Origin: Enterobacteria phage Aplg8
Sequence record: NC_054902.1
Strand: one strand, 5' to 3'
Length of the DNA stretch: 64,000 bases
Part shown: piece by piece, positions 21,748-25,786 of the stretch
Layout of the letters: every line of letters starts with the position of its first letter
How positions within the stretch are numbered: position 1 is the stretch's first letter
Translations under genes and position numbers: made by a program
The notes under the pieces: model-generated
The model's database searches: none
Seen by the model: only the letters and a program-made list of their open reading frames with translations
Told to the model about the DNA's origin: nothing

Positions 21748-22173
21748 TTATTCCTTAAAGTGAGCTTTCAACATCTGATACAAGGACCATGCATGTTCAT
21801 TATTTTCAATAGTAACTTTCATGACTGGGAATTCTGTGAAATCTTCTATTTGTTCTTGCTCTTTCTCTTCCTGCTCTTGCTCTTCAACTGCCTGATATGG
21901 ATTTTCCACTTCATCAAAGAACCCAGCTTCGTTAGTAGAAAGCCAAATAAAGTTTTCGTCAAGGATATCACCATGTGTTGCATATCCAACTGTGCCAGTA
22001 GATGTCACAATTTTAGTAGGACGACCAAGATGGTCAACATCTAAAATTTTAAAAGGATGCATACCTAAACGGCGTGCATAGATTCCGTTATCAGTATGAT
22101 CTTTAATAAAATTTTCTTGAGCTTGTTTATTTTTAAATTGATACCATTTATTAACTTCAAATCTAATAGCCAT
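21748..22173 (-). CDS. Hypothetical protein, 141 aa (goF-sized), acidic C-terminal region
   Basis: 141 aa, the size of T4 GoF, at a similar map position; assignment is tentative. Confidence 0.4.
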
Positions 22174-22421
22174 TAATAAATTTCCTTCCAGTAAGTTGTA
22201 CCGTCTTCAGTGATTTCACGGAATACACCATAAATCGGTTGTTTATCACCAACCTTTTCATACACATAAACCGAAGTCAAGTGAGTAAACTTGATGGTGT
22301 GTTCCTTTTGAACTACTACCAAATCTGGATCGAATAATACATCTTCAAATTCGTCATTAGTGCAATTCTGAACAATTTTACGTTTCATTACAATTTCCTC
22401 ATTAATTGAACAGTGGAGCAA
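22173..22421 (-). CDS. Hypothetical protein, 82 aa
   Basis: ORF; stop/start overlap with neighbours. Confidence 0.35.
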
Positions 22422-22683
22422 TGCGTTTCAGAAGAGTAGCAGCACCTTTGGCGAATTTTACATCATGAAAAACAGTTTCTTCTTCCGTTACAACACGAGC
22501 TTTAATGTTTTCACAATCCCAATTTTTGCGAACAATCTTCAAAAGCTGCAGTAAATCTTTACATTCAGCAATATCGATAACACATCCACGAGAATCTTCC
22601 ATTATCGCACGATAACCGTAAGCCATACCATAATTGTTGAAAGATTGCTCGATGATAATTAAGTTTTCCATTTTATTCTCCAA
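22402..22683 (-). CDS. Hypothetical protein, 93 aa
   Basis: ORF downstream of an early-promoter-like element at 22690-22765. Confidence 0.35.
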   Translation of the reverse strand: MENKMENLIIIEQSFNNYGMAYGYRAIMEDSRGCVIDIAECKDLLQLLKIVRKNWDCENIKARVVTEEETVFHDVKFAKGAATLLKRIAPLFN

Positions 22684-22778
22684 GTTGTTTTCTGTATCAG
22701 TAGTTGATATTGATATAGTACCATAATCAACTACTGATGTATATAGTTTTATGAAAAAATTTTAAACTTTATGCAAAT

Positions 22779-23198
22779 TTATGCTAAAGCTGCTTCGCAC
22801 CATTTTTTAATTTGGAATTCAGGAACTACCATGAACTGGCCTGCAAAAACAATATTGTAGAGCTTGACACCATCTTCTACCCAACGGTCCGAAATAAAAC
22901 CAGCGACTTGATTCGTTGTCCATGGAGTTCCATCTGTTGCCGCCGCAATTGTGAATTTATGGTCTTTTACAACTAAAACTGAAGAACAAAGTTTCCATTT
23001 AAATGCGCTTTCTTCTGGCTCAATGAACTGACTTGAGACATAACCAATGTTACCATCAGCGTCACGAACTTTAACCTCGTTACGACCAAAAACTGGATCA
23101 CTTACAGAAAGAACTTCAACCAGCTTTCCTGCAACTTTAGAACGAGAAGCAACGGATACATATACGTAATCACCAGTAGAGAGATTTACAATATTCAT
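22779..23198 (-). CDS. Paralogue-family protein P3 (KOW/SH3-like N-terminus, conserved C-terminal motif)
   Basis: 139 aa; N-terminus VSVASRSKVAGKLVEV...; C-terminus FISDRWVEDGVKLYNIVFAGQFMVV, shared with 23208-23681 and 23754-24248. Confidence 0.5.
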   Translation of the reverse strand: MNIVNLSTGDYVYVSVASRSKVAGKLVEVLSVSDPVFGRNEVKVRDADGNIGYVSSQFIEPEESAFKWKLCSSVLVVKDHKFTIAAATDGTPWTTNQVAGFISDRWVEDGVKLYNIVFAGQFMVVPEFQIKKWCEAALA

Positions 23199-23207
23199 AA
23201 TAATTCC

Positions 23208-23681
23208 TTAAGCTTTACGAGGAGAAGCATAACGAGTGATTTCAGATTCTTCAACAACCCGGAAGTCACCTAAAAATACAATATTGTATAGCTTTTTACC
23301 GTCTTCAATCCATTGGTCTGTGATGAAGCCACACATCCTATCAGTTTTACTTGGACCAGCGAAATCATCAATATAATCGAATTCTTCATCAGTTACAAAT
23401 TCAACGCCTTTACACAACGCCCATTTAAATTGTGCATTAGACTCAGTGGATTCAACTTCTTCAACAGAAGCAAAATGAGAGCTAACACGAGTTTCCAGAA
23501 ATTTAGGACTTACGTAAGCGTACTGAGTTTCAGTTTTTCCAGAACTAGGAATGATTCGAACTTTAACTTCTATAACACGACCAGTACCATTAGTACGAAG
23601 TCCTACCACTTCAACTAGACGACCTGCAGCTTTAGAACGAGATGCAGACGATACACGCTTAATTTCACCGATAGTAATCAT
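23208..23681 (-). CDS. Paralogue-family protein P2
   Basis: 157 aa; VSSASRSKAAGRLVEVVG... and FITDQWIEDGKKLYNIVFLGDFRVV. Confidence 0.5.
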   Translation of the reverse strand: MITIGEIKRVSSASRSKAAGRLVEVVGLRTNGTGRVIEVKVRIIPSSGKTETQYAYVSPKFLETRVSSHFASVEEVESTESNAQFKWALCKGVEFVTDEEFDYIDDFAGPSKTDRMCGFITDQWIEDGKKLYNIVFLGDFRVVEESEITRYASPRKA

Positions 23682-23753
23682 AATTTTTCTCTCTTTGCTG
23701 TTAAGATTTATTCTCCATGAGAGCCATTATAACAGGCTCTCTATAAAGTAAAC

Positions 23754-24248
23754 TTAATTAAGGATATTAATTACTGCACTACGTGGAACTACACTAAAAT
23801 CACCTGCATGAACAACGTTCAGAAGTTCAACACCGTCTTCAATCCACTGATCAGTTACCCATCCACTCACTGGACCTGCGAACGGACGTCGAATTGAAAC
23901 AGCTTTACACAACAAATCAGTAGGCTCAATAGGCTTAACCAGAGTACCGTACATACAAGCGATATCCATATCAATACAGATGTCTTTAACGGGTTCTACT
24001 TCTTCAATCAACAGTTCAAAGTCGGTGCTTGGAAGGGCGGTAGTAGAAATTGTACCGTATGAATTTTTAATTTCTAAGAATAACCAAGGGCCTTCAGCTT
24101 GTTTGATGAAGTTAACAATAGTGAAACTATTACCTTGAGTGGCGCCTAAAATTTCACAAAACTTTTCATAAGCTCGCACTGAAGCACCATACCAGTTGAT
24201 TTGCTTTTCGTCTTTCAGGATGTAAGTAGCTGTAGTACTGATATTCAT
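23754..24248 (-). CDS. Paralogue-family protein P1 (shares only the C-terminal motif)
   Basis: 164 aa; WVTDQWIEDGVELLNVVHAGDFSVV. Confidence 0.5.
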   Translation of the reverse strand: MNISTTATYILKDEKQINWYGASVRAYEKFCEILGATQGNSFTIVNFIKQAEGPWLFLEIKNSYGTISTTALPSTDFELLIEEVEPVKDICIDMDIACMYGTLVKPIEPTDLLCKAVSIRRPFAGPVSGWVTDQWIEDGVELLNVVHAGDFSVVPRSAVINILN

Positions 24249-24260
24249 GATGTTTTCCCC

Positions 24261-24764
24261 TTAATCTAAGGTAATAAAGCCTTTTAATTCGGCATGTGAC
24301 TTGCGGAACATTACTTGATGACCGCCAATGATAACTTGGTCATCAGGTACTTCGTATACAGCGAGATAAAATCCTTTAGAAGCTAATTCTTCACGCTCTT
24401 CTCGTGTGAACCATCTCATCATATCATATTCGCTAGCGAAAGCAAAATGATAAAGAGCTATAAACCATCCTGGAATATAGTGATCTACGCCTACATATTC
24501 TTCTTTCTCAAAATTAGTATTAATTGCTATATTAGCATTTTTAACTAATAATTTGTCTTCATGCGGCACAGGAATTCTTTTATTATCATTACTATGATGC
24601 ATAAAATTAGGTCTGTCATAACCTACGTGTAATAACCACTCTTCACTCCATGAATCTATTATACTCCTGTACGGAGTTATTTGAACACAAAGATCTCGAC
24701 GTATTGTTATAGCATCTTCATAATTAAGAATACTAAATGATGATTCAACACGATAAATTTTCAT
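24261..24764 (-). CDS. Hypothetical protein, about 167 aa
   Basis: Start at MKIYRVESS with GAGGATAATAAA ribosome-binding site; early promoter directly upstream. Confidence 0.45.
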   Translation of the reverse strand: MKIYRVESSFSILNYEDAITIRRDLCVQITPYRSIIDSWSEEWLLHVGYDRPNFMHHSNDNKRIPVPHEDKLLVKNANIAINTNFEKEEYVGVDHYIPGWFIALYHFAFASEYDMMRWFTREEREELASKGFYLAVYEVPDDQVIIGGHQVMFRKSHAELKGFITLD

Positions 24765-24784
24765 TTTATTATCCTCAGTAGCTA

Positions 24785-24825
24785 TGGTGTTATAATACCA
24801 CAACTAACCGAGGAAGTAAACAACT
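24785..24825 (-). promoter_or_regulatory. T4 early promoter
   Basis: - strand GTTTAC, spacer, GGTATTATAAC. Confidence 0.55.
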
Positions 24826-24827
24826 TT

Positions 24828-25511
24828 TTATCGTTTTGTTGGAAGAGACAGAGGATCGCACTCTTCCTCTGACGGAGCATCTTCAAGACCCATAGCGTAT
24901 CGCAAAGCATACTTCATCATCAGGATGTCTTTCGCACAGTCATGAATAGAATCATGCGCAACGAATCCATCTAAGGTTCCCTTTGGAAGAGGACATGTTG
25001 TCATATCACGAACAAGCAGAAGTGCTTCAATTCTGGTACGAATATCACGCTGATTCCAGAATTTACATGGTTCTAACTTAAATGTGTCAAGCTCATTCTC
25101 AGAAACACCATTAAGACGTTGAATATCACGAATGAGATCGACTAAAATTGGAAAATCAAACGACATTCCACGGCACCAGCCTTGAGATTTCCAAGGATCG
25201 ATATTATGTGCATTGATGTAATCATTAAATTTTGCAATACCGTCGATAGTGCTTACATCTTCATCGGATGGTGCAATATTTTTTCGAGCTTCAGGAGATT
25301 GATTTTTCCACCATTCGATAGTGCTTTTAGTAAAAAGACGATGTCCTTTTTGGCTTTTTAAATCAAATTTGATTTTAATGCCACGTGAAACTAATTCATC
25401 AAACGTTTCAACTACTTCTGGGTTAGGGTCAAAAGCAATTACAGCCAAATCAATAACAGCTGCTTTTTCACCGCTTCCCATTGTTTCAAAATCTATAATA
25501 AAATCAAACAT
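24828..25511 (-). CDS. dexA: Exonuclease A (DnaQ-like 3'-5' exonuclease)
   Basis: 227 aa, same as T4 DexA; MFDFIIDFETMG... Exo-I motif. Confidence 0.85.
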   Translation of the reverse strand: MFDFIIDFETMGSGEKAAVIDLAVIAFDPNPEVVETFDELVSRGIKIKFDLKSQKGHRLFTKSTIEWWKNQSPEARKNIAPSDEDVSTIDGIAKFNDYINAHNIDPWKSQGWCRGMSFDFPILVDLIRDIQRLNGVSENELDTFKLEPCKFWNQRDIRTRIEALLLVRDMTTCPLPKGTLDGFVAHDSIHDCAKDILMMKYALRYAMGLEDAPSEEECDPLSLPTKR

Positions 25512-25786
25512 TAAATTTTCCTTGCTAAATCGCGAATTTGACCTACAGTATAATCTTGGATATAAACTTTATTAATAGGCTCATCAATAAATTTTGCCAT
25601 AGATTCAATATCTTTTTGCATCTCTTCAAGACTGTATATTATCTTTAAAGCTTTTTCGCGAATAGTAATATTTTCAGGACCAGAATTTTTCTCAATGACA
25701 GCTTTAACATTTGTCATAAGAGATTTAAACTGCTGCAAACTTAATTCAATCATTAATAACCGCCTTATAAAGATGGCTAATTTCAC
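25511..25786 (-). CDS. Hypothetical protein, 91 aa
   Basis: ORF; paralogous to 25746-26006. Confidence 0.4.
   Translation of the reverse strand: MKLAIFIRRLLMIELSLQQFKSLMTNVKAVIEKNSGPENITIREKALKIIYSLEEMQKDIESMAKFIDEPINKVYIQDYTVGQIRDLARKI

What the first reader, a model, noticed from the sequence alone, without database searches (positions are those of the whole stretch)
22779..24248. Three tandem paralogues sharing a conserved C-terminal FxTDQWIEDGxxLYNIVFxGDFxVV module, two with a KOW/SH3-like N-terminus
The ORFs at 23754-24248, 23208-23681 and 22779-23198 end with nearly the same about 25-residue motif. The latter two also share an N-terminal VS(S/V)ASRSK(A/V)AG(R/K)LVEV segment. Tandem paralogue families in the 39-dexA hyperplastic region of T-even phages are typical of diversifying host-interaction or anti-defence genes. 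The map position corresponds to the motB region, and MotB is a KOW-like DNA-binding protein by my recollection.
Basis: partly seen in the sequence, partly recalled or inferred. Interest (0 to 1): 0.45.

Follow-up and report, generated by a model that had tools for sequence, protein, structure and literature searches.

The report
Known MotB gene trio in T4-like phage

Summary
The three minus-strand ORFs 23754-24248 (C, 164 aa), 23208-23681 (B, 157 aa) and 22779-23198 (A, 139 aa) share a C-terminal module. Pairwise BLASTP gives E 7e-12 and 6e-11 for C against B and A, and 6e-29 over the full length for A against B. All three pass the Pfam PF17613 (motB) gathering score. The window is a Tequatrovirus, 99.6% identical to Shigella phage Sf23.

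B is the positional motB. C is motB.1. A is the 'second motB' already annotated in RB69, RB51 and RB68.

Patterson-West et al. 2021 already reported three things: MotB and MotB.1 share a C-terminal domain but differ at the N-terminus, MotB has a KOW-like N-terminus, and some phages carry extra copies. The finding is therefore already known.

What I add:
- The family is tiny: 27 clusters among 1.84 billion representative proteins.
- Copy number ranges from 1 to 3 per genome.
- The trio appears to move as a cassette between phage genera.
- dN/dS is 0.14-0.30, which indicates purifying rather than diversifying selection.
- The T4 reference motB.1 (119 aa) is truncated by an extra G that is absent from 13 other T4 records.

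There is no evidence for an anti-defence role.

The parts
23754..24248 (-). ORF-C, 164 aa: motB.1 orthologue. N-terminal beta-rich domain (res 1-83), low-confidence linker, MotB-family C-terminal domain (res 109-164).
   Evidence: ORF; 38% identity to T4 MotB.1, E 3e-28. PF17613 at 35 bits, C-terminal part only. PHROG 2333, 1e-82. AF2 model, pLDDT 80.5.
23931..23975 (-). Conserved linker peptide IDMDIACMYGTLVKP inside ORF-C (res 92-106). The same motif lies at other positions in other family members.
   Evidence: the motif [IF]D[MF]D[IV]A[CS]MY sits between the N- and C-terminal domains here, and ahead of the N-terminal domain in the ~180- and ~250-aa members; residues 86-101 have pLDDT below 50.
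23784..23864 (-). Core shared motif in ORF-C: GWVTDQWIEDGVELLNVVHAGDFSVVP (res 129-155), forming strands 2-4 of the C-terminal barrel.
23208..23681 (-). ORF-B, 157 aa: motB orthologue. KOW-like N-terminal domain (res 1-62, net charge +7), acidic linker, C-terminal domain (res 85-157, net charge -5).
   Evidence: PF17613 full length, 1e-40. PHROG 1671, 3e-67; annotated MotB in Sf23 and RB51; 48% identity to T4 MotB; charges.
23250..23330 (-). Core shared motif in ORF-B: GFITDQWIEDGKKLYNIVFLGDFRVVE (res 118-144).
23726..23753 (-). Promoter-like element upstream of ORF-B: GTTTAC, 16 nt, TATAAT, followed by a GGAG-containing leader. It aligns with the element upstream of T4 motB.
   Evidence: Read directly (window; T4). 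The consensus scan did not list it, so its role is inferred only.
22779..23198 (-). ORF-A, 139 aa: second MotB-type copy (orthologue of RB69ORF010c / RB51ncORF010c). KOW-like N-terminal domain (res 1-62), short linker, C-terminal domain (res 66-139). It starts 9 nt after the ORF-B stop and has its own TAAGGA Shine-Dalgarno sequence.
   Evidence: PF17613, 6e-20. PHROG 1671, 1e-50; 39% identity to B. AF2 model, pLDDT 83.9; intact 139-aa orthologues in 206 phage records; sequence.
22821..22901 (-). Core shared motif in ORF-A: GFISDRWVEDGVKLYNIVFAGQFMVVP (res 100-126).

Best explanation
The three ORFs are a tandem array of MotB-family early genes of a T4-like phage, in the order motB.1 (C), motB (B) and a second motB-type copy (A).

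Each protein consists of two small beta-barrels joined by a flexible linker. The C-terminal barrel is common to all three. The N-terminal barrel is KOW/SH3-like in A and B, and is a different LSm/SH3-like barrel in C.

By homology with T4 MotB, B (and less certainly A) is an abundant early protein that coats DNA without sequence preference, compacts the nucleoid and disturbs H-NS/StpA binding, which modestly raises burst size. C pairs the same C-terminal barrel with another N-terminal barrel. Its activity is unknown.

I infer that the shared acidic, aromatic-rich C-terminal barrel is a common docking or self-association module rather than the main DNA-binding surface, and that the N-terminal barrels provide the nucleic-acid specificity.

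Shown here: homology, domain layout, predicted fold class, distribution, selection regime. Inferred: DNA binding by B and A, and the role of the C-terminal domain.
For: Family membership: Pfam PF17613 is above threshold for all three. PHROG 1671 and 2333 match, with cross-hits between them. Near-identical phages annotate B as MotB and A as MotB-like.

Synteny with T4 (dexA, motB.2, motB.1, motB, cef).

Published function of T4 MotB:
- It is toxic in E. coli, binds host and modified T4 DNA non-specifically, co-purifies with H-NS and StpA, and gives a 2-fold larger burst (PMC6070864).
- It alters H-NS footprints and derepresses H-NS-regulated genes (PMC7827196).
- It is present at about 40,000 copies per cell at 5 min (PMC12152347 citing Son et al. 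2021).
- A shared C-terminal domain and differing N-terminal domains of MotB and MotB.1 have been published.

Structure:
- AF2 models have pLDDT 83.9 (A) and 80.5 (C).
- Every barrel shows the strand4, 3-10 turn, strand5 order typical of SH3-like folds.

Charge: the N-terminal domain of B is +7, while the C-terminal domains of B and C are -5 and -2.

Selection: purifying, dN/dS 0.14-0.30. A is always intact at 139 aa in 206 records.
Against: - Only T4 MotB has been tested biochemically, and B is only 48% identical to it.
- T4 MotB is basic overall (pI 9.2, net +6), whereas B, A and C are acidic overall (pI 5.6, 5.4 and 4.5). T4-like DNA coating may therefore not carry over, least of all to A, whose N-terminal domain has net charge -2.
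- The published analysis assigns the C-terminal domain to the OB-fold cold-shock DNA-binding class and allows that it binds DNA.
- Deleting or amber-mutating T4 motB.1 gave no phenotype.
Confidence: 0.8

Rival explanations
1. The array is a diversifying anti-defence or host-range locus. On this view the paralogues are kept and varied because each counters a different host immune factor.
For: Copy number varies from 1 to 3 per genome. The third copy is present in only about a quarter of carriers (206 of 779 records). N-terminal domains are shuffled among family members. motB and motB.1 are only 48% and 53% identical to T4's although the flanking dexA is 100% identical. The region is dispensable in the laboratory.
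Against: dN/dS is 0.14-0.30 in every comparison, with no excess of amino-acid change. The deep divergence is matched by saturated synonymous sites (dS 1.6-1.9), so the alleles are old rather than fast-evolving. The shared module is the most conserved part: the C-terminal domain of C is 98% identical to RB51's and 86% to T4's. No paper read links MotB to a defence system. The known activity is nucleoid and H-NS remodelling.
Confidence: 0.1
2. C (MotB.1), and possibly A, act on RNA rather than DNA. The LSm-like N-terminal barrel of MotB.1 would bind RNA, as proposed for the GoF/MotB.1/Frd.2 group.
For: Kim et al. 2025 model the MotB.1 N-terminal domain as an LSm-like barrel related to GoF and Frd.2. 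My model of C finds GoF among viral structures, though only weakly (Foldseek E 0.074, probability 0.99). C is strongly acidic (pI 4.5), which is unlike a DNA-coating protein.
Against: MotB.1 had no effect in the RNA reporter assay of that paper (abstract). However, the construct was synthesised from NC_000866.4 and so encoded the truncated 119-aa form. The similarity to GoF is weak. An acidic protein is not an obvious RNA binder either.
Confidence: 0.1

Closest known systems
Bacteriophage T4 MotB (Pfam PF17613; NP_049626)
   Same: Same Pfam family. Same two-domain layout (KOW-like N-terminus plus conserved C-terminal domain) in B and A. Same genomic slot between dexA/motB.2 and cef. Similar promoter-like leader upstream of B.
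   Different: B is only 48% and A about 37% identical to T4 MotB. T4 MotB is basic (pI 9.2), whereas B and A are acidic overall. The window has two MotB-type copies where T4 has one.
T4 MotB.1 (Patterson-West 2021 'Category 2'; PHROG 2333)
   Same: C matches it over the N-terminal domain and the start of the C-terminal domain (38% identity, E 3e-28). It occupies the same slot, immediately upstream of motB.
   Different: C carries a 20-residue insert holding the DMDIACMYG motif. The annotated T4 reference protein (119 aa) lacks the last 28 residues of the module because of an extra G. Other T4 records encode 143 aa with the full module.
RB69 motB.1 / motB / RB69ORF010c trio (Mosigvirus)
   Same: The same three genes in the same order, 92%, 87% and 87% identical to C, B and A. 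RB69ORF010c has been annotated 'similar to motB' since the original record, and Patterson-West 2021 cite RB69 as having two motB copies.
   Different: In RB69, motB.2 lies after the trio instead of before it. The RB69 motB.1 reading frame is broken in that record, which produces the 29-aa 'Category 3' peptide.
KOW / Tudor / SH3-like small beta-barrels (NusG and Spt5 KOW, 53BP1 tandem Tudor)
   Different: There is no detectable sequence relationship (Pfam SH3_3 reaches only E 0.02-0.08). The resemblance is in fold class only and does not indicate family membership.

Membership tests
MotB family (Pfam PF17613) | Match to the family profile above the curated gathering score (25 bits) | tested here: met
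   B 139.6 bits, A 72.1 bits, C 35 bits. Isolated C-terminal domains score 72.3, 56.9 and 33.5 bits.
MotB family (Pfam PF17613) | Conserved C-terminal domain with the core G-x-[IV]-[ST]-D-x-W-[IV]-E-x-G-x-x-L-x-N-[IV]-V | tested here: met
   Present in all three. Conserved across 35-36 family members.
MotB proper (Patterson-West 2021 Category 1; PHROG 1671) | KOW-like N-terminal domain with V-S-x-x-S-R-S-K-x-A-G | tested here: met
   Met for A and B. Not met for C, which belongs to the MotB.1 branch (PHROG 2333, 1e-82).
MotB proper | Position in Tevenvirinae genomes between dexA and cef, transcribed with the early leftward genes | tested here: met
   The gene order matches T4, RB51, Sf23 and JS98.
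MotB proper | Non-specific DNA binding, toxicity in E. coli, co-purification with H-NS/StpA | not testable with these tools
   Known only for T4 MotB. The overall charge of B and A differs from that of T4 MotB.
MotB.1 / GoF / Frd.2 LSm-like group (Kim 2025) | N-terminal five-stranded bent beta-sheet related to GoF | tested here: inconclusive
OB-fold cold-shock DNA-binding domain (published assignment of the MotB C-terminal domain) | OB topology: five strands with the helix between strands 3 and 4, and structural matches to OB proteins | tested here: not met

The most novel reading that the evidence does not exclude
The shared C-terminal barrel may be a Tudor/SH3-like docking module, with conserved acidic and aromatic residues (D-x-W-x-E-D-G). 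It would bring different N-terminal nucleic-acid-binding barrels (KOW-type in A and B, LSm-type in C) to one common partner. Candidate partners are H-NS/StpA filaments or the other paralogues, through mixed oligomers. On this reading the trio works as a cooperating set for remodelling the nucleoid and relieving silencing, and is exchanged between phage genera as a unit.
Probability: 0.15. Interest if true: 0.45.

Novelty: already known. Interest (0 to 1): 0.15.

Why it matters
As a discovery it matters little. The family, its shared C-terminal domain, the KOW-like N-terminus and the extra copies are all published, and the genes are annotated in RefSeq.

The modest value lies in three refinements.
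1. The shared module looks SH3/Tudor-like rather than OB-fold. In most members it is acidic, which argues against it being the DNA-binding surface.
2. The three genes behave as an exchangeable cassette under purifying selection.
3. The T4 reference motB.1 is truncated, apparently through a sequence error. Published heterologous-expression tests of MotB.1 therefore probably used a protein missing half of the conserved module.

Tried and rejected
- The consensus promoter and terminator scan of 22100-25700 found 17 promoter-like sites against 13.5 expected from shuffles. It was uninformative and missed the T4-type element that I read by eye.
- A profile search of solved structures found nothing significant (best E 0.35), so no experimental structure exists for the family.
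- Weak Pfam hits at permissive thresholds (SH3_3 at E 0.02-0.08, YqiJ_OB at E 0.09) are far below their cut-offs and were not used.
- I looked for recent gene conversion or a DNA-level tandem repeat among the three genes. Only short patches remain: 48 nt at 79% identity and about 18 nt in the motif core. Synonymous sites between A and B are near saturation (dS 1.26). The duplication is therefore old.
- Son et al. 2021 (NAR 49:9229), the main mechanistic paper on MotB, is not held in the library. I cite it only through other papers' reference lists.
- The anti-defence reading was rejected for lack of any positive evidence and because dN/dS is low.

Full report
**What is there.** The window is a Tequatrovirus. 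Bases 22300-24900 are 99.6% identical to Shigella phage Sf23 and 95% identical to RB51/RB68. All genes in this stretch lie on the minus strand. Their order is dda, three small ORFs, dexA (24828-25511), a motB.2 homologue (24261-24764), ORF-C (23754-24248, 164 aa), ORF-B (23208-23681, 157 aa), ORF-A (22779-23198, 139 aa), a 93-aa ORF, cef and goF, with gene 39 further on. T4 has dexA, motB.2, motB.1, motB, cef in the same slot. C therefore sits where motB.1 does and B where motB does. A and the 93-aa ORF are extra relative to T4.

**Checking the observation.** The three proteins align with 22 invariant columns, almost all in the last 40 residues. Pairwise BLASTP gives:
- A against B: 39% identity over the full length, E 6e-29.
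- C against B: 52% identity over 42 residues, E 7e-12.
- C against A: 59% identity over 29 residues, E 6e-11.

All three exceed the gathering score of Pfam PF17613 'motB': B over its whole length, C only in the C-terminal part. PHROGs places A and B in 1671 (MotB-like) and C in 2333, with significant cross-hits through the shared module. The shared N-terminal VS-x-ASRSK-x-AG-x-LVEV segment of A and B is real. C has a different N-terminus.

**What is already known.** Patterson-West et al. 2018 showed four things about T4 MotB. It is toxic in E. coli. It binds host and modified T4 DNA without sequence specificity. It co-purifies with H-NS and StpA. It doubles burst size.

Their 2021 paper predicted a KOW-like N-terminal domain and an OB-fold C-terminal domain by HHpred. 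[quoted passage not shown] It sorted 102 homologues into categories by N-terminus. It also noted that several phages carry extra copies, with RB69 having two motB plus motB.1.

Kim et al. 2025 modelled the MotB.1 N-terminal domain as an LSm/SH3-like barrel related to GoF and Frd.2.

ORF-A is the orthologue of RB69ORF010c (87% identity), annotated 'similar to motB' in the original RB69 record. The finding is therefore a correct rediscovery of published facts.

**Structure.** AlphaFold2 models were built from family alignments. They reached pLDDT 83.9 for A and 80.5 for C.

A consists of two beta-barrels:
- N-terminal: strands 11-14, 26-32, 41-45 and 51-55, a short turn, then 59-60.
- C-terminal: strands 73-84, 93-108, 111-118 and 121-126, a short turn, then 130-133.

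C has an N-terminal domain (res 8-83), a low-confidence linker (res 86-101) and the same C-terminal barrel. The conserved motif covers the second half of strand 2 through strand 4 of that barrel.

**Distribution and modularity.** A profile of the three C-terminal domains was searched against 1.84 billion representative proteins. It found only 27 clusters, all 43-251 aa. Most of the distant members have a KOW-like N-terminus followed by the module, which suggests that this is the ancestral layout.

Family members combine the module with at least three N-terminal arrangements. Many also carry a short conserved peptide, [IF]D[MF]D[IV]A[CS]MY. It lies between the domains in C, but ahead of the N-terminal domain in the ~180- and ~250-aa members.

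tblastn with the 36-residue core found 779 phage records and 1681 places. In an evenly spaced sample of 40 records, 4 had one copy, 24 had two and 12 had three. Intact 139-aa orthologues of A occur in 206 records.

**Selection and history.** Against T4, the flanking genes are nearly identical: dexA 100%, cef 97% and motB.2 93% at the amino-acid level, with dS 0.19-0.41. B and C, by contrast, are only 48% and 53% identical, with dS 1.6-1.9.

Against RB69, which belongs to a different genus, the pattern reverses. C, B and A are 92%, 87% and 87% identical (dS 0.14, 0.33, 0.63). The flanks are far more diverged: dexA and cef at 69% with dS about 2, and motB.2 at 42%. The trio has therefore been exchanged between lineages as a block.

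dN/dS is 0.14-0.30 in every comparison, and the shared module is the most conserved part: the C-terminal domain of C is 98% identical to RB51's and 86% to T4's. This is purifying selection on old alleles, not diversifying selection. At DNA level the paralogues retain only short patches of similarity, so the duplications are ancient.

**Mechanism.** By homology, B is an abundant early nucleoid-binding protein that interferes with H-NS. Its N-terminal domain is strongly basic (+7). However, B as a whole, A and C are acidic (pI 5.6, 5.4 and 4.5), unlike T4 MotB (pI 9.2). The C-terminal domain is acidic or neutral in four of the five proteins examined.

I therefore infer that the N-terminal barrels carry the nucleic-acid binding, and that the shared C-terminal barrel is a common docking or self-association module. 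This inference is untested. The anti-defence suggestion has no support.

**Side observation on T4.** The reference record NC_000866/AF158101 has an extra G (ATTG-G-AAGATGG) inside the motif of motB.1. This gives a 119-aa product ending ...TDQWIGRWR. The next frame still encodes EDGVELLNVVHAGEYSVVPRSAVVAILN. Thirteen other T4 genome records match this stretch with a one-base gap. One of them, MT984581, annotates a 143-aa MotB.1 with the complete module. Kim et al. 2025 had motB.1 synthesised, citing NC_000866.4 coordinates, and describe a 13.8-kDa protein. Their negative results probably concern a truncated protein.

**Verdict.** The feature is real, the description is correct, and the naming as the MotB region is right. 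It is already known. Interest is low.

Noticed in passing
L002:4192-4330 (T4 NC_000866 7191-7329), compared with L004:170-601 (T4 MT984581): The T4 reference motB.1 carries an extra G inside the conserved motif. This truncates the protein to 119 aa. Thirteen other T4 records lack the G and encode a 143-aa protein with the full C-terminal module. Kim et al. 2025 synthesised motB.1 from the reference sequence, so their heterologous assays probably used the truncated form.
   Followed up: partly
L007:1482-1978 (RB69 AY303349): RB69 motB.1 is broken by frameshifts in the same stretch. The 29-aa RB69ORF012c, which is 'Category 3' of Patterson-West 2021, is simply the out-of-frame tail of motB.1. 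The intact reading is visible across three frames.
   Followed up: partly
window 22779-24248 compared with L007 and L002: The motB.1, motB, motB-like trio is much closer to that of RB69 (Mosigvirus; dS 0.14-0.63) than the flanking dexA and cef are (dS about 2). Against T4 the flanks are nearly identical and the trio is highly diverged. This indicates cassette exchange between genera.
   Followed up: partly
proteins P0148, P0149, P0151, P0240: Metagenomic proteins that look like recombinants between array members. Some have a T4-type or B-type MotB N-terminus fused to the C-terminal domain of A. A 43-aa product joins the first 17 residues of MotB.2 to the end of the MotB.1 module. These suggest deletions by recombination within the array.
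   Followed up: no
window 23931-23975 (-): A conserved peptide, IDMDIACMYGTLVKP, lies in the low-confidence linker of ORF-C. It recurs at different positions in other family members and is absent from T4-type MotB.1. It may be a short linear interaction motif.
   Followed up: partly
window 22684-22778 (-): The 95-nt spacer between ORF-A and the 93-aa ORF contains a perfect 11-bp inverted repeat (CAGTAGTTGAT ... ATCAACTACTG). A GTTTAA, 16 nt, TATATA promoter-like element precedes the repeat, and a GGAG Shine-Dalgarno sequence lies downstream of the repeat, ahead of the 93-aa ORF. Function not examined.
   Followed up: no
window 22402-22683 (-): A 93-aa ORF (89 aa from the annotated start; PHROG 3720, unknown function) is present here and in RB51 and Sf23 but absent from T4. 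It has no Pfam match.
   Followed up: no
L001:5946-6191, L002:6144-6389, L003:4962-5207: RefSeq names the 81-aa DexA.2 protein 'dextranase' in Sf23, T4 and RB51. This looks like an annotation error propagated from the gene name.
   Followed up: no
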